Below, in pieces: positions 8,921 to 20,800 of a stretch of 39,532 nt of DNA. Numbering within the stretch: the first letter of the stretch is position 1; the number at the start of each line of letters is the position of its first letter. The position numbers and the translations under genes were made by a program. The stretch covers positions 1 through 39,532 of the IMG/VR virus record IMGVR_UViG_3300037046_000003; one strand, written 5' to 3'. Below the pieces are notes generated by a model. That model made no database searches and was not told the origin of the DNA. It saw only the letters and a list, made by a program, of their open reading frames with translations. This DNA is from a virus (taxonomy: Duplodnaviria; Caudoviricetes).

Positions 8921-9321
8921 TGGATGATTTCCAGCTCGTTGTAGTCGAAGCACACAGCATCCTCGTCGTCGGCGAACGTAACGTGCATCGGCATCTCAAC
9001 ATCCCCGTCATCAGCGACCGTGACGATGCCGACGGAGCCTGCGCAATCAACATCAGGAAGCACGCGGACCTTGGTGCCCACCGGGGTGTCCTTCGAGGGC
9101 ATCCGTGGCAGCCGATAGATGGCGAACTGGACATCACTGGACTCGCTCTGGACCACTTCGGTCTGGATCGGGTAGCCCTTGGCGCGGAGGCGGAACACGG
9201 TATCGGACAGGCGCATGTGGCCCCACAGGGCGGTCGCCTTGGAGATGTCCAGGGAGTGCCCTGTCTGGAGGTAGGCCAGGACCTTGGCGGTCTTGGAGCT
9301 GGGTGTCGGAACGTGCTTCAT
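8917..9321 (-). CDS. Winged-helix HTH protein with an acidic beta-rich C-terminal domain
   Basis: KVLAYLQTGHSLD...MRLSDTVFRLRAKGYPIQTE fits a phage HTH_39-like pattern. Confidence 0.7.
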   Translation of the reverse strand: MKHVPTPSSKTAKVLAYLQTGHSLDISKATALWGHMRLSDTVFRLRAKGYPIQTEVVQSESSDVQFAIYRLPRMPSKDTPVGTKVRVLPDVDCAGSVGIVTVADDGDVEMPMHVTFADDEDAVCFDYNELEIIQ

Positions 9322-13122: not shown

Positions 13123-15567
13123 TCAGGCGAAGAAGTAGTCTGATTCCATGACGGCTTCGAGGTCCAGGGTGCCCATCGGTGGGAGGGGCGGGAGGGTGGC
13201 AGCAAGTTCGTCTGGCAGTTGCTCGGCCAGTTGATCCCGGAAGTCTTTCAGGATGTCTCCCCGGTATTGATCCATGAAGGCCCGGCGGAGGTGGTAGGAC
13301 AGCTCTTCGGCTTCCGCTGCATGAGCCCCATAGGAGTCATGAATCATGCAGAAGTCTTTGAGCCCAGCGTCCAGACAGTAATTAACGGTACGCATCATGT
13401 GAGCCGCATCCAGGGAGTGGATGAAGTTCGGAGAGATGCCATTCTTCTGGGCAACCTTGTTGATCTTGTGCCCTGTGATGTTGAGGACCATACGGTATCT
13501 GCGGCCCGCTACATTGAAGTCGAGGTCCTTACCCTCGGCCACCCTATAGGCTTGCTGCACCAAGAGCCCTGAAGGGGTCACCCAGCGCACCGGAAGGCCA
13601 TCAGACGCGGCCACCTTGGCAGCATCCATGAGCCATTGCATGGCGACACGGGCAGCAACCACGACTTGACCAATGGCGGTGTGGTTCTTCTCGGCGATGT
13701 ACGCTGCGTCTTCCATCTCGGTTTCCCGTGTAGGGCCACTGAGGTCGCCATCAAGGCGCATGGAGGAGAACTCCTCGCGGAGCTGGTTGCGCATCCCGTA
13801 CTTGGACACGCCGTAGGGGACCGTCATGGTGTTGCGCTTGGTCCATTTACGGGTCAGCTTGCCTACCCAGCGTTCAGCTACCGGGCAATCGCCTGCTGCT
13901 GCGTCCAGGTCGATGGACTTCTGGGCAACCTCAGCCACAGCCCGATAGACATCCGAGGGGGTGTCCGAGGGAACCAGATTGACAGCCTTGCCGCCCACTT
14001 CATCGCGGAGCATTGCGGAGAAGTTCTGGAGGCCATTACAGGTGCCATCCCAGGAGACCGGGAGGTGGGAGAGGAATGAGCTGCCCTGCATGGTGTAGCC
14101 GGCCCACTCAAAGCAGAAGGCCAGGAACATATAGGGGCTGTCAGCCTCGGCCCAGAAGAGGCTTCCGTCCGTTGGGTTGAAGGCACACTCCAGAATCTGG
14201 TCACGATGATCCAGCACCCATTGGACACGATCACCGAAGGGGACCTTATCGACACCGAAGCAGTTGGCGCCATGGACAGCTAGCCAGGTTGCCCCGTGTT
14301 CGCCCAGCGGTTTGCCGGCAGCGAAGGTGAGGAGGGCCTTGGCAAGGTCATCGCCCTGGGGGTTCAGCATGGAGGACACCGGGTAGGCCCGGCCACGCCA
14401 GTCGAGGGCATGGGGGAAGTGGAACTGCTCGTATTCGCCCATGACTTCAGCGATGTGCAGCTTGGTTTCCACCCCGAGGCGCTTGCTAACGAGGCGGATG
14501 TTCTCCTCGTAGGTCTGGGCAGCAGCCTTCTTCCATGCCTTGTGCTTCTCGGGCTCCGTCTCTGGGTCATGGAACTTCGGCGGCAGGGGCAGGGGCTCAC
14601 GGGTAGGCAGGCCACCAACACGGCCACCGCCATCCCATATCTCACGGGCAACTCGCAGGACGCCTGTATTGACAGACCATGCGGTGTCCTGGAGGGCATT
14701 GATGGAGCGATAGACATCCGGCATGTCCCAGTGGCGCAGCTCTTCAAGGTAGTTCTTGTTGGCTGTCTTGATGAGTGGGAAGCGCAGCTCCTTGGTGAGG
14801 TAGCCGCCACCATAGGGGCCTGTCCAGGGGATCGGAGGGGACACCATGGGCATGAAGGTGGGCTGCATCAGGGAGCAGCGGGCGTGTGCCAGCTCCAGCC
14901 ATTCCATGGTCTTGGCGGATGCGGTGATGTAGTTGGGGGTGTCGTTGTGCCCACGGGTCATCTTCAAAACCTCGATAAGCCCCGTGGATTCGACCATCAG
15001 GTGGATTAAGGTTGTGCCCATACGGGCCTTTTCGGTGACTCCCCACTTGATGGTAGCGACGCCTGCATATTCCTGCTGGCGCTTCATGACGATATGGCGG
15101 TAGCCCTCGTCGTTGCTGTGCTGAATCTTCCGGCAGAGCTGCTTATAGAGCAGTGGGGCTTCTGCCTCCAAGGCGTCATGGTTCAGGCAGTCTTCAAGGG
15201 CATTGGCCACCTGAATGGCAGCCGTGGATAGGAGAATCTTGTCGGTGATGGAGTGGATGACACGGCGGGCCACGATGAAGGCGGCACGCTCGGGGGAGAA
15301 CTGGGCCAGGAACTTGGCGATGGAGGTGGAGCGGCCAGCCTTGCCGTCTAGGGCCTCTTCGATCATGGTACGGATGCACTCAGCGAGGGGCAGGACGGCA
15401 GCCTTGATGAGGCGCTGGCCGGGTTGCAGGGTGTCTTCCCCGGCACTCAGGGAGGCCAGATACTTCTCAACACCGAGGGCCAGGCATTCACCCTCAAGGG
15501 CAACCTGCTGGAGCTTCAGGAATTCTTGCTTAGTAGGGACGGGTTGATAGTTGTCCATTTGATGCAC
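13123..15567 (-). CDS. Single-subunit DNA-directed RNA polymerase (T7 gp1-like)
   Basis: LDWRGRAYP, DGTCNGLQ, RKWTKRNTMTVPYG, PNFIHSLDA, IHDSY and C-terminal YFFA. Confidence 0.98.
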   Translation of the reverse strand: MHQMDNYQPVPTKQEFLKLQQVALEGECLALGVEKYLASLSAGEDTLQPGQRLIKAAVLPLAECIRTMIEEALDGKAGRSTSIAKFLAQFSPERAAFIVARRVIHSITDKILLSTAAIQVANALEDCLNHDALEAEAPLLYKQLCRKIQHSNDEGYRHIVMKRQQEYAGVATIKWGVTEKARMGTTLIHLMVESTGLIEVLKMTRGHNDTPNYITASAKTMEWLELAHARCSLMQPTFMPMVSPPIPWTGPYGGGYLTKELRFPLIKTANKNYLEELRHWDMPDVYRSINALQDTAWSVNTGVLRVAREIWDGGGRVGGLPTREPLPLPPKFHDPETEPEKHKAWKKAAAQTYEENIRLVSKRLGVETKLHIAEVMGEYEQFHFPHALDWRGRAYPVSSMLNPQGDDLAKALLTFAAGKPLGEHGATWLAVHGANCFGVDKVPFGDRVQWVLDHRDQILECAFNPTDGSLFWAEADSPYMFLAFCFEWAGYTMQGSSFLSHLPVSWDGTCNGLQNFSAMLRDEVGGKAVNLVPSDTPSDVYRAVAEVAQKSIDLDAAAGDCPVAERWVGKLTRKWTKRNTMTVPYGVSKYGMRNQLREEFSSMRLDGDLSGPTRETEMEDAAYIAEKNHTAIGQVVVAARVAMQWLMDAAKVAASDGLPVRWVTPSGLLVQQAYRVAEGKDLDFNVAGRRYRMVLNITGHKINKVAQKNGISPNFIHSLDAAHMMRTVNYCLDAGLKDFCMIHDSYGAHAAEAEELSYHLRRAFMDQYRGDILKDFRDQLAEQLPDELAATLPPLPPMGTLDLEAVMESDYFFA

Positions 15568-15585
15568 CTCTGGATAGATACGGGC

Positions 15586-15628
15586 AAAAGAGACCCCTCG
15601 GGAGCCCCGTTAGGAGCCCTCGAAGGGT
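15586..15628 (-). terminator. Terminator-like hairpin between the promoter motif and the RNAP start
   Basis: ACCCTTCG-AG-GGCTCC-TAAC-GGGGCT-CC-CGAGGGGT then CTCTTTT. Confidence 0.6.
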
Positions 15629-15632
15629 GGGA

Positions 15633-15654
15633 ATGCGATAGCTGGGTTTTTACT
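15633..15654 (-). promoter_or_regulatory. Putative phage RNAP promoter upstream of the RNAP gene
   Basis: AGTAAAAACCCAGCTATCGCAT (one extra A), overlapping the bro stop. Confidence 0.75.
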
Positions 15655-16357
15655 TGATGAGCTTCATTTTCTTAGCTGCGGCAGTCAGGAGAGAGACTGG
15701 GTACATGGCCTGCCCATCGAACTCCTTGGTACGGGTGATGCGGCCAGCGGCATCGTTCATGCCACGTACAGTCTTCCCGAGGGTGGTCTTCTGGCCGTGG
15801 GTGAGTACCAAGCGGAGGGACTTATTGAAGTCGAAGACACTGGCGTACTCCAAGGCATCGGCCACCTGTGCCTTCACCTCCTTCAGCTCCACTGCCTGCT
15901 GGGCCTGCACCTTGGCTTGCTCCTGCATGGCTGTGTAGATGGCCTGCATGGCTCCCATCTGGGCACCAATCAGGTCCATGTTAGACATCGTAGGGTTCTC
16001 CACAAGGGACGGCTGTCCGGTCACGAAGGAGCCAGTCTTGCGGATGGAGGGGAGGACTTCCTTGGTTACCCAGTCTTGGAAGGGGCGGGCCTGCGGTGTC
16101 TGGGAGCGCATCGCCAACTTGTAAAGCCCGGACTCGGACACCAGCATCACCTCGCGGCCTGCACCAAGCCCCAACTCCACGGGGTGGCCCTTGAGTGACT
16201 CAGAGTCATCCAAGCAGTTGTATCGGCGGGAGTGGCCCTCAGCAGTACCGAAGAGCACGCGAAAGATGTCCGCGCCGACGAACCACGGGTTGCCCTCAAT
16301 GGTGACTACGCGGATGGTGGAGGTATTGAAATTGAAGGACGTAACTTGGGTGTTCAT
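15650..16357 (-). CDS. BRO-N domain protein (prophage antirepressor-like)
   Basis: IRVVTIEGNPWFVGADI, VSESGLYKLAMRS and FQDWVTKEVLPSIRKTG motifs. Confidence 0.9.
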   Translation of the reverse strand: MNTQVTSFNFNTSTIRVVTIEGNPWFVGADIFRVLFGTAEGHSRRYNCLDDSESLKGHPVELGLGAGREVMLVSESGLYKLAMRSQTPQARPFQDWVTKEVLPSIRKTGSFVTGQPSLVENPTMSNMDLIGAQMGAMQAIYTAMQEQAKVQAQQAVELKEVKAQVADALEYASVFDFNKSLRLVLTHGQKTTLGKTVRGMNDAAGRITRTKEFDGQAMYPVSLLTAAAKKMKLIK

Positions 16358-16406
16358 GGTCTATCTCCGATTCGTGGAAGCAATGCAGAAGTGTATGATA
16401 CAGGGG

Positions 16407-16442
16407 AAATGAAAGACACCCACAGATTATCTATGGGTGTCT
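16407..16442 (-). terminator. Terminator-like hairpin downstream of attP and upstream of bro
   Basis: AGACACCCATAGA-TAA-TCTGTGGGTGTCT followed by TTCATTT. Confidence 0.7.
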
Positions 16443-16444
16443 GA

Positions 16445-16522
16445 AGGAGTCTCTTTAGGAGTCTCTTATTACTACTCTTTACTAAGTAATCCTTAGAGTG
16501 TCTTTACTAAGGAATCTTTAGG
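16445..16522. repeat. AT-rich short-repeat tract (candidate replication origin)
   Basis: AGGAGTCTCTT x2 and TCTTTACTAAG x2, directly downstream of a promoter motif. Confidence 0.55.
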
Positions 16523-16527
16523 GGCCT

Positions 16528-16548
16528 ATGGGATAGCTGGGTTTTACT
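16528..16548 (-). promoter_or_regulatory. Putative phage RNAP promoter
   Basis: AGTAAAACCCAGCTATCCCAT(AGG), abutting the integrase stop. Confidence 0.78.
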
Positions 16549-17904
16549 CTATTTTTGGGCACATCCTTGGGCACACGGTACTTCTAGGTTAGTATCCACT
16601 TCGTCTGTGGTCTTTGTGTGCTCTGGCTCCCCGACCTGGGCTCGAACCAGGGACCTACGGATTAACAGTCCCATATCTACAGGGTTGTCTATAGGGGACA
16701 CACGCCGGGGACCCAGTATTGACGGCCTTCTCGACTTCCCTGCAAGGTCTGTGCCATGGGTGCTGTCAGAGGCCACTTTGGGCACAAGTTTGGGCACACC
16801 GAAGACACGCTGCGGATGACCTTCTGCCTGCCTGCTGGTTGCCTCTGAGTGGCGAGTGTCAAGGGTCCGTGCGAGGCCCTTCAGGTCGCTGCCAAACAGG
16901 GTGACGTACTTCATGGTTGTCGTGATGTTCGCGTGACCCATCCACTTCTGGATTCGGAAAGCATCCTCCCCGGCTGCCGCTAGGCGTGAAGCACAGGTGT
17001 GGCGGAGGGCGTGAAGGACGAACTCTGGGTCCTTCTTTGTGTCGATGCCGAGGGACACCCTCATAGCGGCCCAGCGATCCTCTGCATAGTCCTTGGAGAG
17101 CATCCCGAAGGGGGTAGGCAGGGCGCTGCGCTTGCGGAGCAGGGCGGCCACTCTACGTGTCATTGGCACTTGTCGCGGGAGGTCGGCCTTCGTCTCCCAT
17201 GCGGCGACCATCTCATTTTCCCAGTCGATGTCTCTGGGCTCCATGCGGATGGCCTCCGAGAGACGGAACCCGGTATCCACAAGGAACACCGACAGGGCTG
17301 CCATATCGGCATCGCGGGGAACCGTCCTGTCAGTGTGGGCGAACCACTCGATGGCAGCCTTCTCCTCGGCGTAGGACAGGATGCGGATGCGGCCATTGCG
17401 AATCTTCTGGCGGGGCATCTTGAAGGGCTTCACTGCACCGCTGGTCCATGCCTCCGCAAGGGTAAGCAGGACGCTGACAAGGGACAGGCGCTGGTTGATC
17501 GTGCTGGCACTCAGCTCCTCGTTGTCCCTCAGCTTCTCCACGTAGGAGAGCATCACACCCCGGTCGAGACTGGACAGGTCCGTATGGTCCTCGAAGTGGC
17601 GGACCACATGGGCGTAGTTGTCGGTGATGGTCTTCTGGGCAGTGCTGGCACGCCAAGGCTCATACTCGCGCATGGCCCTCTTGAAGGCGTCCTTGAAGGC
17701 CATCCCACGGGCAGCCCCTAGACGCACGCTGGAGGCCGTTACAGGGCCTCTGCTGGGCATGCGGAGGGCTTCCTCCATGGCTACCTGCTTGGCCATCTCA
17801 AGGCGCCCAGCTTCGGCCCTGTCAGTAGTGCCGAGGGAGACGCGGACACGCTCCCCGTTGGACAGCCTGAAGTCGGACTGCCAAACACCCTTACGTTGCT
17901 TCAT
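16549..17904 (-). CDS. int: Tyrosine integrase
   Basis: N-terminal arm-binding-like segment, DTGFRLSE (R), ETK (K), HALRHT (HxxR), MGH and TTMKY (Y). The tail of about 90 aa reads through attP. Confidence 0.95.
   Translation of the reverse strand: MKQRKGVWQSDFRLSNGERVRVSLGTTDRAEAGRLEMAKQVAMEEALRMPSRGPVTASSVRLGAARGMAFKDAFKRAMREYEPWRASTAQKTITDNYAHVVRHFEDHTDLSSLDRGVMLSYVEKLRDNEELSASTINQRLSLVSVLLTLAEAWTSGAVKPFKMPRQKIRNGRIRILSYAEEKAAIEWFAHTDRTVPRDADMAALSVFLVDTGFRLSEAIRMEPRDIDWENEMVAAWETKADLPRQVPMTRRVAALLRKRSALPTPFGMLSKDYAEDRWAAMRVSLGIDTKKDPEFVLHALRHTCASRLAAAGEDAFRIQKWMGHANITTTMKYVTLFGSDLKGLARTLDTRHSEATSRQAEGHPQRVFGVPKLVPKVASDSTHGTDLAGKSRRPSILGPRRVSPIDNPVDMGLLIRRSLVRAQVGEPEHTKTTDEVDTNLEVPCAQGCAQK
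16555..16575. repeat. Integrase arm-type site pair
   Basis: TTGGGCACA at 16555 and 16567 (12-bp period). Confidence 0.75.
16624..16671 (-). mobile_element. attP core = 3' half of tRNA-Asn(GTT) including CCA
   Basis: Minus strand GGACTGTTAATCCGTAGGTCCCTGGTTCGAGCCCAGGTCGGGGAGCCA has the anticodon loop CTGTTAA, T-arm GGTTCGAGCCC and CCA. The 5' half is absent. Confidence 0.92.
16778..16798. repeat. Integrase arm-type site pair
   Basis: TTGGGCACA at 16778 and 16790 (12-bp period). Confidence 0.75.
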
Positions 17905-17905
17905 G

Positions 17906-18241
17906 TCATCCTCCTTGGATGGCCTCGATTTCAGCCTTAAGGGCCTGTCCTCGGGGTGTCAGTTTGACCAGCTTGCGGCGGCGATAGAACGGGTCTTCAA
18001 AGGCATCAAGCAGCCCGTACCCCGGTTCCTTCGGGTTCAGTCCGGGACCGAGGATGACCACGTTGCGGGAGACAGATGACTGCTCCACCCCGGCCAGCTT
18101 CGGCAGGTCGGCCATCGGTATTTCTCCGCGCTCTAGGATGGTGAGGAGAATGGATACCTGCTGAAGCGGTATCTTAGGGTTGTCGGTGTAGCGGAGGATG
18201 GTTGTCAATACCTTCCCCGTGACTGTGAGAGCTTTCATCAT
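17906..18241 (-). CDS. MarR-like winged-helix regulator (candidate repressor)
   Basis: LAGVEQSSVSRNVVIL...EDPFYRRRKLVKLTPRG, directly upstream of int. Confidence 0.85.
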   Translation of the reverse strand: MMKALTVTGKVLTTILRYTDNPKIPLQQVSILLTILERGEIPMADLPKLAGVEQSSVSRNVVILGPGLNPKEPGYGLLDAFEDPFYRRRKLVKLTPRGQALKAEIEAIQGG

Positions 18242-18395
18242 TTACCCCTATCTTCGTTATGAGGATGAGCGTGCGTCCTATCAGGACTTCCCACTCATTA
18301 GCGTGTTCCTGCTTCTCTATGCGGAACCGTGGTCGCGGTCCTTCGCGGGTATAGAAGTCAGTCCCTGCCGTTACATTGAATCCAAAAATTAACAC
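18174..18395 (-). CDS. Hypothetical protein overlapping the MarR-like gene start
   Basis: 73-aa ORF, relatively low GC, weak SD. Confidence 0.4.
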   Translation of the reverse strand: MLIFGFNVTAGTDFYTREGPRPRFRIEKQEHANEWEVLIGRTLILITKIGVNDESSHSHGEGIDNHPPLHRQP

Positions 18396-18420
18396 GTTAT
18401 CTATGACCTTTGTGATACCG

Positions 18421-18457
18421 CACCCCGCGTGCTGCTATCAAGTCACGATGCGGGGTG
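18421..18457. other. Hairpin in the AT-rich intergenic region upstream of the marR-int unit
   Basis: CACCCCGC...GCGGGGTG inverted repeat. Confidence 0.55.
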
Positions 18458-18586
18458 GATATGATACATGAGTGGAACTGATACACAACCAGTACAGAGG
18501 GCATTCTACCTATTAGGTAATATGATGCTTGCTTATAGTTTCATCAGTCCGTGAGGTGCTAACTAGCCTCTTAGAGCGAATCCGTG

Positions 18587-18751
18587 CTAGTAGGAGGCGT
18601 CCAGAAGAGGCCCTACAAGAATCAGGAGGATCGGGACGAGGACCACAGAGAGGGCGGCTAGGACCTCCTCGGGCTTCCTTGCTAGGGGCGTTAGGGCGGA
18701 CCCTCTGTAGAGCCTTGGAGGGGCCTTCCTGTGCGTCTGGGGGCGGTTCAT
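18587..18751 (-). CDS. Small early protein with a C-terminal TM segment (54 aa)
   Basis: GAGGAG SD then ATG 18751, containing VLAALSVVLVPILLILVGPLL. Confidence 0.6.
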   Translation of the reverse strand: MNRPQTHRKAPPRLYRGSALTPLARKPEEVLAALSVVLVPILLILVGPLLDASY

Positions 18752-18761
18752 TATCGGCTCC

Positions 18762-18941
18762 TCAGTAGATGTATTCAAGGGAACCGTTGGGCATCTCCAG
18801 AGCGGCATCAGCGGACTCGCCTGCCCTGTACCGGTCCTTCAGGTACTTCATGGCAGCGTCGAAGGACAGGCCGGTTTCCACGATGTCCTCAGATTCAAGG
18901 CCGGGGTTCTCAACGATTGAGTAGGTGCGCGGGAGGTTCAT
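18762..18941 (-). CDS. Small early protein (59 aa), absent from the ORF track
   Basis: AAGGA SD, reading MNLPRTYSIVENPG...GSLEYIY*. Confidence 0.7.
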   Translation of the reverse strand: MNLPRTYSIVENPGLESEDIVETGLSFDAAMKYLKDRYRAGESADAALEMPNGSLEYIY

Positions 18942-18944
18942 GAT

Positions 18945-19103
18945 TCAGTTCCTTACGAGGGAGCAGGCGTTTCCGCTAGCTGCTGCATGCTTGAGCCACT
19001 GGAGGGCCATCTTGTGGGGAAACGAGGAGCGGCCCAGCCTGTCAGCGAAGTAGCTGAATGAGCCGTCTCCTGCATCAATGCGGATGCTGTATTGGTTGCT
19101 CAT
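18945..19103 (-). CDS. Small early protein (52 aa), absent from the ORF track
   Basis: AAGGAG SD, reading MSNQYSIRIDAGDGSFSYF...LVRN*. Confidence 0.65.
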   Translation of the reverse strand: MSNQYSIRIDAGDGSFSYFADRLGRSSFPHKMALQWLKHAAASGNACSLVRN

Positions 19104-19183
19104 GGGGTGATGCGCTCCTTGATGATGCGGACACCCTCACGGGCTGCGCTCTCGACTGCATCAGCGATGAGGAGAAACTTCAT
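19100..19183 (-). CDS. Micro-ORF (27 aa)
   Basis: GGAGG SD and ATGA coupling at both ends, reading MKFLLIADAVESAAREGVRIIKERITP*. Confidence 0.6.
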   Translation of the reverse strand: MKFLLIADAVESAAREGVRIIKERITP

Positions 19184-19386
19184 AGCTTGCAAGCCTCCCG
19201 CACCAAGGCATCAACGGCGGTGTAGAAGTCCTTCATCTCCTCCGCAGTCCTTTGGGGCATCTGGCAGACCTTGGTCAGGTCGTGTAGCAGGGTAGATGCC
19301 TGCTTCAGTGCAACCTCCTCGGGCAGCCCGAGGATGCCGCTATTGGCTACCCTTTCGAGGTGCCATAGGGTGTCGTTCAGGTTCAT
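19180..19386 (-). CDS. Small early protein
   Basis: GGAGG SD then ATG 19386, coupled to its neighbours. Confidence 0.65.
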   Translation of the reverse strand: MNLNDTLWHLERVANSGILGLPEEVALKQASTLLHDLTKVCQMPQRTAEEMKDFYTAVDALVREACKL

Positions 19387-19526
19387 TGGCACACCTCCCT
19401 GACGAACCAGGGTTGAAACTCATGGGCGGGATAATCGCCCCAGGTCAGGAAGCCCATTCGATGTCCTCCTCGGGGATGTAAAGGGGGGGTCAGGCGACCA
19501 CCCACGATGATAAAATCAGTAGCCAT
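19383..19526 (-). CDS. Small early ORF (47 aa)
   Basis: AAGGAG SD, reading MATDFIIVGGRLTPP...GEVCQ*. Confidence 0.5.
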   Translation of the reverse strand: MATDFIIVGGRLTPPLHPRGGHRMGFLTWGDYPAHEFQPWFVREVCQ

Positions 19527-19797
19527 GGCTGGCTCCTTTCCTAGGGCTGTATTTGGAGAGCTTGAGGATTCCCTTACGGGTGCGGCGGAGGATCATCATT
19601 TGGGGCTCCTTTCGAGGTGACTTGACGTATCCAGAAGAGGCCCTGTGACATCCAGGAGGGCCACCCTCCTTGAGCTGGACATACTCGCCAGCCTTCAGGG
19701 CCTTGATAGGGCTCTGCTGGGCAGACTGAGCGGGCCAGCAGATAGGGCAGTTGAAGCCCTTACCGTGTGGGCATTTCGGGCACTGTTCGCGGGCCAT
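19516..19797 (-). CDS. Basic early protein with an N-terminal Cys4 zinc-ribbon-like motif
   Basis: AAGGAGG SD, CPKC...CPIC. Confidence 0.6.
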   Translation of the reverse strand: MAREQCPKCPHGKGFNCPICWPAQSAQQSPIKALKAGEYVQLKEGGPPGCHRASSGYVKSPRKEPQMMILRRTRKGILKLSKYSPRKGASHGY

Positions 19798-19833
19798 GTC
19801 GGGCCTCCTTTAGGTGTGACTGTGGATTAACTG

Positions 19834-19903
19834 AAGGGCTCCGTTAGAGCGAAACCCTTGGATTAATGCAGCAGTGGATAGGGTGGGCCGAGTCAAAGCC
19901 CTT
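19834..19903 (-). other. Extended stem-loop after ardA (RNase III-site-like)
   Basis: AAGGGCT/AGCCCTT outer stem and ACCCT/AGGGT inner stem. Confidence 0.45.
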
Positions 19904-20393
19904 AGTTGCTGAAGTAGTAGCCGTTTTCCTCTGAGAAGTCATAGGCCAAGTCCCTGCCGAATGCCTCAAAATCGAAGTACCGCCGAAGGTTCTCGGGGAC
20001 ATCCGAAAGCATCCCGCAGGATTCCGCGTAGTCCTCTGCCAGTTCAGTATCAGAGCTGTATTTGCCGTAATACTTGTTGTCACAGTCCTCAGCATCCCAC
20101 TCCCCAAAAAGGGAGATGTAAGCAATGGCCTTCTCCATGTCGTCACAGTCCATCAGGGACCAGACAGCCTCCTCAATGGAGCATTCCGACATCATGGAAG
20201 AGGGCACACCCTCGTAGTCCTGGAACATCAATTCCGGGTCTTCCTCATCCTTGTGCAGCTCCCGACATGCAGTAATGAAATCAGCCTTGCCTGCGTAGTC
20301 CGCCAGATCAAGCCACGCACCTTCGATGCTGCCCTCGGTGTACTTCGCATAGGTGCCGACATAGACACGGAATTCGGTTGTGTTGGTGGTCAT
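19902..20393 (-). CDS. ardA: ArdA antirestriction protein (DNA mimic)
   Basis: VYVGTYAKY...GAWLDL, DPELMFQDYE and LRRYFDFEAFGRDL motifs; very acidic. Confidence 0.92.
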   Translation of the reverse strand: MTTNTTEFRVYVGTYAKYTEGSIEGAWLDLADYAGKADFITACRELHKDEEDPELMFQDYEGVPSSMMSECSIEEAVWSLMDCDDMEKAIAYISLFGEWDAEDCDNKYYGKYSSDTELAEDYAESCGMLSDVPENLRRYFDFEAFGRDLAYDFSEENGYYFSN

Positions 20394-20405
20394 TTGGAGG
20401 CCTCT

Positions 20406-20531
20406 TCAGAAAACGTTACGGATAACTGCACGGGTTGCCTCAAGGCTGAGGCCCTGACGACGTGCCCAACGATTGAAAGCGTAGAAGCCGACTTGATGCG
20501 CAAAGCGTTCGAGCTGCTGTGACTTGGCCAT
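20406..20531 (-). CDS. First early ORF (41 aa, basic), absent from the ORF track
   Basis: GAAGGAG SD, reading MAKSQQLERFAHQVGFYAFNRWARRQGLSLEATRAVIRNVF*. Confidence 0.7.
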   Translation of the reverse strand: MAKSQQLERFAHQVGFYAFNRWARRQGLSLEATRAVIRNVF

Positions 20532-20771
20532 GATGTAGCTCCTTCAGTTGAATTCAGGTAGGGGCTTTCGGTGCCCTACTGGACCGCTGAAGAGGCCTCG
20601 TTAGAAGCCCCTTTAGTGCTGCGTCATCTCGCCTAGATCAGCCATTCCGGCCCGGACCTTTAGAGCTAGTCCGGTATCCTCAACAGAGCATTTGTGTTGC
20701 CAGCCCCCTGTCAGGGCTCTTGAGTCACCATCTCGGCGAGTCGTTGTTGTGTTTCGTGTTACTGAGACTGC

Positions 20772-20800
20772 ATTATGCGCTTCTGTATTGAATCTGTCAA
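20772..20800 (-). promoter_or_regulatory. Host sigma70 early promoter
   Basis: TTGACA-17 nt-CATAAT. Confidence 0.88.

What the first reader, a model, noticed from the sequence alone, without database searches (positions are those of the whole stretch)
13123..20800. Integration as a genetic switch: attP separates the host early promoter from bro-RNAP
Seen: on the minus strand the order is sigma70 promoter, early genes, marR, int[attP], promoter motif, terminator, bro, promoter motif, terminator, RNAP. Recombination at attP would leave the promoter-marR-int block at one prophage end and bro-RNAP at the other, behind the restored host tRNA. Known: T7 RNAP is first made from host promoters in the early operon, and integrase plus MarR-like genes next to RNAP are reported in some T7-like phages (cyanophage P-SSP7, Pseudomonas LUZ100). 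Inference: lysogeny may be maintained partly by physically disconnecting the RNAP gene, and excision would reconnect the lytic circuit.
Basis: partly seen in the sequence, partly recalled or inferred. Interest (0 to 1): 0.85.

Follow-up and report, generated by a model that had tools for sequence, protein, structure and literature searches.

The report
Repressor-guarded polymerase in temperate T7-like phage
This T7-like bacterial virus carries its integration site between its early genes and its RNA polymerase gene, a layout already described for such viruses; integration would put the polymerase gene behind a host tRNA promoter rather than leave it promoter-less, so dormancy likely rests on the virus's own repressor and terminators.

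Summary
The layout is real: sigma70 promoter, early genes, marR-like gene, int with a 48-nt tRNA-Asn att core inside its 3' end, phage promoter, hairpin, bro, phage promoter, hairpin, RNAP. Relatives show the split prophage form (one close viral record; 26 chromosomal prophages with int 35-43 kb from RNAP). attP between int and RNAP is already in print (pelagiphages, P-SSP7). The switch reading is only partly supported. In 17 of 19 prophages with a rebuilt tRNA attB, the host tRNA gene points into RNAP, and 10 of 12 candidate host tRNA-Asn loci carry near-consensus promoters. Integration therefore swaps promoters; it does not remove one. A 16-bp palindrome lies on the early promoter, upstream of marR, after both hairpins and 3 nt after the RNAP stop. 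It recurs family-wide, sits inside LUZ100's mapped promoters P1 and P2, and co-varies with the MarR recognition helix. Best reading (0.7): MarR represses both prophage ends in trans, terminators insulate attL, and the split is largely a by-product. Binding is inferred; no RNA data exist. The scan noted the same layout and operators before, on other DNA. New member of a known kind.

The parts
20772..20800 (-). Early sigma70-type promoter (TTGACA-17-CATAAT)
   Evidence: 11/12; matching sites in L002 and L171
20809..20824 (-). Putative MarR operator just upstream of the -35
   Evidence: rank 22 of 39,517
20774..20789 (-). Putative operator over the spacer and -10 of the early promoter
   Evidence: rank 139; LUZ100 P1/P2 carry a copy at the same place
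19902..20393 (-). ArdA antirestriction gene (early)
   Evidence: PF07275 E 1e-27
19865..19880 (-). Putative operator in the early region, at the base of a long RNase III-like hairpin (19880-19815)
   Evidence: z -5.6; rank 37; RNase III reading is inference
18463..18478 (-). Putative operator upstream of marR, over a weak promoter candidate (TTGTGT-16-TATCAT, 18488-18461, 8/12)
   Evidence: rank 1 of 39,517; not pre-chosen
17906..18241 (-). MarR-family winged-helix regulator, likely repressor
   Evidence: model pLDDT 96.5; top Foldseek hits are MarR-family proteins
16549..17904 (-). Tyrosine integrase, 451 aa; last 40 codons run through and beyond the att core
   Evidence: PF00589 E 2.5e-20
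16778..16797 (-). Arm-type repeat pair, int side (inferred)
   Evidence: similar repeats in L002 and L171
16624..16671 (-). att core: 3' 48 nt of tRNA-Asn, anticodon stem to CCA
   Evidence: at both ends of the relative L004/L002
16555..16574 (-). Arm-type repeat pair, RNAP side (inferred)
   Evidence: similar repeats in L004 and L005
16527..16547 (-). Phage RNAP promoter motif A
   Evidence: same position in L004 and L005
16404..16442 (-). Terminator-like hairpin T1; first hairpin after the restored tRNA at attL
   Evidence: z -4.3; hairpins at the same place in L004 (z -5.6) and L005 (z -4.6)
16382..16397 (-). Putative operator just after T1, 25 nt before the bro start
   Evidence: rank 160; L004 pos. 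287, L005 pos. 365; LUZ100 copy after T4
15650..16357 (-). Bro-N antirepressor-like gene
   Evidence: PF02498 E 1.6e-17, phrog_130; slot held by KilA-N in L004 and Bro-N in L005
15630..15651 (-). Phage RNAP promoter motif B (would allow RNAP auto-amplification)
15584..15628 (-). Hairpin T2 with short U-tract
   Evidence: z -3.5; not called by the scan
15561..15576 (-). Putative operator over the RNAP ribosome-binding site
   Evidence: rank 8
13123..15567 (-). T7-type RNA polymerase (GTG 15567 or ATG 15558)
   Evidence: phrog_414 E 1e-246, PF00940
13104..13119 (-). Putative operator 3 nt after the RNAP stop
   Evidence: family-wide signal at this offset; weak in the window itself, rank 1220

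Best explanation
This is a T7-like phage with a marR-int-attP-bro-RNAP module that is predicted to integrate into a host tRNA-Asn gene and is likely kept silent by its own MarR-family repressor plus two terminator-like hairpins, with the separation of early promoter and RNAP gene likely a by-product. Shown: gene order, att core, the split prophage form in relatives, tRNA orientation at attL, hairpins and palindromes. Inferred steps: (1) on infection, with no repressor yet, host RNA polymerase from the early promoter leaks through T1 and T2, and the first phage RNAP amplifies itself from promoters A and B. (2) In the lysogen, MarR made at the attR end binds 16-bp palindromes at both ends: early promoter and marR promoter at attR; after T1, at the RNAP start and after the RNAP stop at attL. 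(3) At attL the host tRNA promoter replaces the early promoter, so T1, T2 and the operators must do the insulating. (4) Loss of MarR frees int at attR and bro-RNAP at attL; excision restores the contiguous early unit.
For: Split form: record L004/L002 starts with the host 5' part of tRNA-Asn plus core and ends with int plus core; 26 of 54 chromosomal loci tested have a same-strand T7-type int 34.6-43.5 kb downstream of RNAP (paired by hand from coordinates). Promoter swap: tRNA co-directional with RNAP in 17 of 19 rebuilt attB; 10 of 12 host tRNA-Asn loci score 8.5/12 or more. Operators: at +3 after the RNAP stop, 16 of 124 loci pair at 5-6 of 6 positions (null 0.7%) and 41 of 124 at 4 or more (null 4.5%). 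A copy of the phage's own element (10/12 or better) lies within 500 nt upstream of RNAP in 27 of 53 phages against 13 of 212 control windows; at 11/12, 12 of 53 against 0 of 212. A matrix trained without the window ranks window sites 1, 8, 22 and 37 of 39,517. LUZ100's element recurs at 11/12 in its mapped host promoters P1 and P2 and at 9/12 just after the T4 hairpin. Ten integrase-less-type phages all score below zero. Gln at position 4 of the MarR recognition-helix stretch goes with TATCC-type half-sites in 18 of 19, against 3 of 35 without it; partial Mantel r 0.27, p 0.0006 with RNAP similarity held. The read-through, auto-amplification and MarR model is that of PMC10134795.
Against: No binding or RNA data; no RNA run is listed. 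The motif and its register were first chosen from the window, and overall match counts are not enriched (11 against 7.3 +/- 2.5). Most of the matrix's top 40 window hits lie away from control points; three proposed sites rank only 139, 160 and 1220. The co-variation trait was defined after seeing the data and gives only 5 independent pairs (mean 4.2 same way, 0 opposite; sign test median p 0.125). Three of six integrase-bearing isolates lack the post-stop element, among them Pasto, which has a marR-like gene; BB8 has the element but no hit to my MarR profile. L005 has no operator at the RNAP start. Seven of 26 attB could not be rebuilt and six of the 19 rest on cores of 8-11 nt. Integration of this exact phage was not seen.
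Confidence: 0.7

Rival explanations
1. Integration is itself a working part of the switch. Only transcripts from the early or marR promoter get through T1/T2, for example through an antitermination signal in the early RNA, so RNAP can be made only from the unintegrated or excised genome.
For: The split is general in the prophages examined: 0 of 49 loci on contigs over 50 kb have a T7-type int within 3.5 kb upstream of RNAP (hand count). No host promoter of 9/12 or better between att and RNAP in the window. Bro-N or KilA-N sits on the RNAP side in all three close phages. In 2 of 19 prophages the tRNA is antisense to RNAP, as the P-SSP7 core is described, so there the break from host promoters would be real. 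LUZ100 reads show some read-through past T4.
Against: A host tRNA gene points into RNAP in 17 of 19. In L005/G005 a sigma70 promoter and the tRNA 5' half lie inside the att region of the circular record, upstream of bro-RNAP in both states. The early promoter carries likely operators. No Rfam family beyond the tRNA fragment and a sub-threshold chance hit was found in 13-22 kb.
Confidence: 0.15
2. bro-RNAP has its own weak host promoter just after T1, repressed by MarR at the overlapping operator, so RNAP expression does not depend on upstream transcription in either state.
For: The operator lies 25 nt before the bro start, a usual place for a repressed promoter. L004 has TG-n-CATAAT abutting it, L005 TTGCCT-17-GATTAT across it. 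PMC10134795 cites Boeckman 2022 for MarR sites flanking a promoter upstream of RNAP.
Against: The candidates are not in one register across the three phages; the window's best is 8/12 and lies in T1's loop. LUZ100 5'-end mapping lists no host promoter between T4 and RNAP.
Confidence: 0.1
3. The palindromes are not MarR operators but RNA stems, processing signals or sites for another protein, and the module is a decaying or rarely used lysogeny cassette.
For: One perfect match (36740) is part of the capsid-gene terminator stem. No stable LUZ100 lysogens were obtained. L002 and L171 encode a small antisense protein before marR, ribbon-helix-helix-like in L171.
Against: Several sites have non-pairing inner positions yet keep the consensus; they overlap mapped -35/-10 elements in LUZ100; they follow the MarR helix. 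Int keeps the invariant columns of the family alignment, and 24 of 28 int-end loci examined keep a marR-like gene.
Confidence: 0.05

Closest known systems
Pseudomonas phage LUZ100 (PMC10134795; parts 2-4 of 8 read, plus passages; GenBank features)
   Same: marR-int, terminator, phage promoter, RNAP; RNAP 39.8% identical; proposed read-through, auto-amplification and MarR repression; the same palindrome family at P1, P2, after T4 and after RNAP (my analysis).
   Different: The window has a Bro-N gene and two promoter-hairpin units between att and RNAP, and att inside int. The main text names no attachment site or operator sequence, and lysogens were not obtained.
HTVC019P-type pelagiphages (bioRxiv 10.1101/410191; passages) and cyanophage P-SSP7 (PMC1079782; passages)
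   Same: attP between integrase and RNAP, attB in tRNA genes; integration shown by PCR for the pelagiphages.
   Different: Their attP sites are in non-coding DNA; here the core is within int. The passages seen do not discuss promoters.
Temperate T7-like phages Pasto and ProddE (Boeckman et al. 2022; paper not held; known from citations and GenBank records)
   Same: int upstream of RNAP; a MarR-like repressor with binding sites near the RNAP promoter is proposed for some members.
   Different: ProddE has a CI-type repressor between int and RNAP; neither has the post-stop palindrome. The paper may already state the permutation and the operator sequences.
Integration-dependent immunity of mycobacteriophages BPs, Brujita, Charlie (PMC3694055; part 1 of 3 read)
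   Same: att inside a coding sequence, so integration changes a C-terminus.
   Different: There attP is in the repressor gene and removes a degradation tag. Here marR is untouched and only the int tail changes; no evidence of a tag.

Membership tests
T7-like phages (Autographiviridae as used in the records) | Single-subunit phage RNA polymerase | tested here: met
   phrog_414 E 1e-246; PF00940
T7-like phages (Autographiviridae as used in the records) | One-strand T7 gene order and repeated phage promoters | tested here: met
   RNAP, ligase, SSB, endonuclease, amidase, primase/helicase, DNA polymerase, exonuclease, terminase on the minus strand; six promoter copies. Structural genes were not scanned.
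T7-like phages (Autographiviridae as used in the records) | Linear virion DNA with direct terminal repeats | not testable with these tools
   The 131-nt end repeat marks a circular assembly; real ends are inferred between terminase and the early promoter.
Temperate T7-like phages with marR-int-attP-RNAP module | Tyrosine integrase upstream of RNAP with marR-like gene before it | tested here: met
Temperate T7-like phages with marR-int-attP-RNAP module | att core matching a host tRNA, between int and RNAP | tested here: met
Temperate T7-like phages with marR-int-attP-RNAP module | Integration of this phage into its host | tested here: inconclusive
   No attL/attR junction shown in four contig sets; seen for a relative with the identical core
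MarR-family repressor | Winged helix with flanking N- and C-terminal helices and DxRxxxxxLT wing motif | tested here: met
   Pfam MarR hits are below the curated cut-off
MarR-family repressor | Dimer binding a palindromic operator and repressing | not testable with these tools
   Indirect only
Integration-dependent immunity switch (BPs type) | attP inside the repressor gene | tested here: not met
   Core is in int codons 412-427; marR ends 1.2 kb upstream
Integration-dependent immunity switch (BPs type) | C-terminal proteolysis tag removed by integration | not testable with these tools
   A 24-aa tail ending CAQK is shared with one relative but overlaps the arm repeats; int stops before att in L005

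The most novel reading that the evidence does not exclude
Promoter swap with repressor-gated terminators. Integration trades the early promoter for the host's tRNA promoter, and MarR bound a few bases past the weak U-tracts of T1 and T2 acts as a roadblock that makes them tight. Basal RNAP leak, and so spontaneous induction, would then follow tRNA-promoter activity (growth rate, stringent response), and induction would begin at attL before excision.
Probability: 0.15. Interest if true: 0.65.

Novelty: new member of a known kind. Interest (0 to 1): 0.3.

Why it matters
How temperate T7-like phages keep a self-amplifying polymerase gene off is still unproven: the MarR model is a hypothesis in the papers seen. 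This locus does not show a new switch, but it gives a site-by-site operator map, a candidate helix-residue to half-site rule, and two cultured, named hosts with close prophages (Paraburkholderia susongensis LMG 29540, Methylovorus sp. MM2) in which the model can be tested. It also corrects the tempting idea that integration leaves RNAP without a promoter.

Tried and rejected
ARAGORN found no whole tRNA in the window; the att core is a fragment. The Rfam RsaA hit at 16508-16413 is below the gathering score and taken as chance. The idea that the TTTGCC terminator tail doubles as a conserved -35 was dropped: the matching -10 is poor and out of register. A within-locus against cross-locus word comparison showed an excess, but many top hits were phage-promoter copies, so I replaced it. 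Sequencing runs: no RNA holder listed; contigs break at the tRNA core, so host and phage junctions cannot be told apart, and two joints in X1 have sides of only 30-31 nt. The int tail as a degradation tag: not supported beyond one relative. 28 of 54 chromosomal loci tested gave no pairable integrase and were left out of the att counts; 26 of the 80 loci were not submitted (mostly short contigs). PMC13026187 (abstract) concerns a P2-like phage and PMC10142737 (passages) gave no regulatory detail. The look-up of earlier findings by relatives was blank. No complex prediction was sent.
Full report
What the window is. The 39,532-nt record is a circular assembly (131-nt end repeat) of a T7-like phage with the genes examined on the minus strand. 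It is held by groundwater metagenome runs (three with a share of 0.3 or more, one possibly the source). The 48-nt att core matches exactly in 31 of 401 genomes of the order holding G003, the Methylovorus genome, so the host is likely a betaproteobacterium; that this order is Burkholderiales in GTDB is recalled.

Observation. The core lies inside int codons 412-427, beyond the catalytic domain, between paired GTGCCCAA repeats. T2 folds well (z -3.5) but has a short U-tract and was not called by the scan.

Is the split real? Yes, in relatives. One viral record (RNAP 82%, Int 58% identical) begins with the 5' part of tRNA-Asn and the identical core, continues promoter-hairpin-two ORFs-promoter-hairpin-RNAP, and ends with early promoter, marR, int and the core again. 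Of 80 RNAP loci from bacterial genomes I submitted 54 to an integrase search; 26 had a same-strand T7-type int 34.6-43.5 kb downstream, paired by hand from coordinates. By hand count, 0 of 49 loci on contigs over 50 kb have such an int within 3.5 kb upstream of RNAP, while the marR-int-RNAP order is seen in 19 viral loci including the window. For this exact phage no junction was seen.

Does the split remove host transcription? Mostly not. A tRNA attB could be rebuilt for 19 of the 26 prophages; in 17 the tRNA points into RNAP and in 2 away. Of the 17, three restore the tRNA on the RNAP side as the window would, seven on the int side, and seven on neither; six of the 19 cores are only 8-11 nt. 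Ten of 12 host tRNA-Asn loci with the window's core have a promoter match of 8.5/12 or more, and many show a hairpin with a U-run after the tRNA (read by eye). Integration would move that host terminator to attR and leave T1 as the first stop. In the close relative L005/G005 the att region itself holds a sigma70 promoter and the tRNA 5' half, upstream of bro-RNAP in both states; this circular record could also be a collapsed prophage.

What keeps RNAP off? A 16-bp imperfect palindrome, first noticed in the window, sits on both sides of the early -35, in the early region, after T1, over the RNAP ribosome-binding site and 3 nt after the RNAP stop. Its overall count is not enriched (11 against 7.3 +/- 2.5), so I tested it on other DNA. 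At +3 after the RNAP stop, 16 of 124 loci pair at 5-6 of 6 positions (single-position null 0.7%) and 41 at 4 or more (4.5%). Each phage's own element recurs within 500 nt upstream of RNAP at 10/12 or better in 27 of 53 against 13 of 212 coding windows, and at 11/12 in 12 of 53 against 0 of 212 (the window is one of the 53). A matrix from 55 relatives' sites, window excluded but its close kin included, ranks window positions 18478 (upstream of marR, not pre-chosen) 1st, 15576 8th, 20824 22nd and 19880 37th of 39,517; 20789, 16397 and 13119 rank 139, 160 and 1220, and most other top-40 hits are away from control points. In LUZ100, whose promoters were mapped by experiment, the post-stop element recurs at 11/12 inside P1 and P2 and at 9/12 just after the T4 hairpin. 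Ten phages taken as lytic (T7, SP6, phiNFS and others; lifestyle recalled from their taxonomy, only 400-nt flanks fetched) all score below zero; of six integrase-bearing isolates, LUZ100, BB8 and RHEph01 score 7-8 and ProddE, Pasto and DU_RP_I do not.

Which protein? The 111-aa protein folds as a MarR-type winged helix (pLDDT 96.5; best Foldseek hit BpsR, E 7e-6). Across 54 phages with one marR-like gene, operator similarity follows recognition-helix similarity with RNAP similarity held (partial Mantel r 0.27, p 0.0006). Gln at the fourth place of the helix stretch goes with TATCC-type half-sites in 18 of 19 against 3 of 35; on the RNAP tree this is only 5 independent pairs, none in the opposite direction, sign test not significant, and the trait was defined after seeing the table. 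Binding is therefore inferred.

Mechanism. On infection the unrepressed early promoter likely reads through T1 and T2, and RNAP then amplifies itself from promoters A and B, as proposed for LUZ100; that T7-type polymerases pass terminators that stop the host enzyme is recalled from T7. In the lysogen, MarR from the attR end likely binds both ends, and T1/T2 with their adjacent operators insulate RNAP from the tRNA promoter. The split follows from int being an early gene with att at its 3' end (inference). It may add safety, and it is a true break where the tRNA is antisense, but it is unlikely to be the main lock.

What is known. attP between int and RNAP is reported for 12 pelagiphages (bioRxiv 10.1101/410191, passages) and downstream of int in P-SSP7 (PMC1079782, passages). 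MarR repression of RNAP through sites near its promoter is attributed to Boeckman et al. 2022 by PMC10134795 and PMC11321410; that paper is not held and may already contain both the permutation and the operators. In the searches run I saw no paper stating the disconnection idea or listing these operators; (Autographiviridae, MarR, operator, lysogen) returned none. Supplements were not read. It is not a BPs-type integration-dependent switch, since att is not in the repressor gene. Earlier notes of this scan, seen only after my tests, report the same layout and operator reading on other genomes; they are not independent support.

Verdict. Observation confirmed; interpretation partly supported; a new member of the known temperate T7-like kind. 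Interest 0.3. The boldest reading left open is a promoter swap with repressor-gated terminators (probability 0.15).

Noticed in passing
window 16623-16549; L004 59-136: The attP-form integrase has a 24-codon tail after the core in both the window and the relative, ending CAQK with different stop codons at the same place. Host-dependent attR tails in 14 in-silico junctions ran from 4 to 184 aa. The tail overlaps the arm repeats, so DNA constraint may explain it.
   Followed up: partly
L005 1-125 and L149 2680-2809 (G005): The att region of this relative holds what reads as the 3' end of a host gene (PNPase-like by recalled sequence), a sigma70 promoter and the 5' half of tRNA-Asn, unlike the window, which carries the 3' half of the same tRNA.
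   Followed up: partly
L014, L021, L060, L072, L076, L078, L079, L081, L087-L089, L098, L141: A group (Melainabacteria/Vampirovibrionales, Oligoflexales and viral contigs) has one to three marR-like genes directly upstream of RNAP and no T7-type integrase at E 1e-40 in the genomes searched: a different layout in which marR stays with RNAP.
   Followed up: no
window 16357-15650; L004 769-1467; L005 669-1481: The slot between att and RNAP holds Bro-N in the window and L005 but KilA-N in L004; X1 also shows variant contigs within bro.
   Followed up: partly
window 16525-16445: AT-rich stretch with short direct repeats right after phage promoter A, also present in L004 and L005; possibly a replication origin primed by phage RNAP (inference from T7, recalled).
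   Followed up: no
window 19880-19815 and 20625-20580: Long hairpins between early genes without U-tracts (z -5.6 and -2.1), the first conserved in L002 7830-7870; RNase III sites are a likely reading.
   Followed up: partly
L171 8480-8689 (-); L002 about 9120-9278 (-): A small antisense gene upstream of marR in both close relatives, ribbon-helix-helix-like in L171; no counterpart seen in the window.
   Followed up: no
L103 10001-19799: marR-int-tRNA-Leu lies only about 8 kb downstream of the RNAP start, suggesting a much shortened element.
   Followed up: no
L002 7980-8240: Pentapeptide-type repeat array in an early gene of the closest relative.
   Followed up: no
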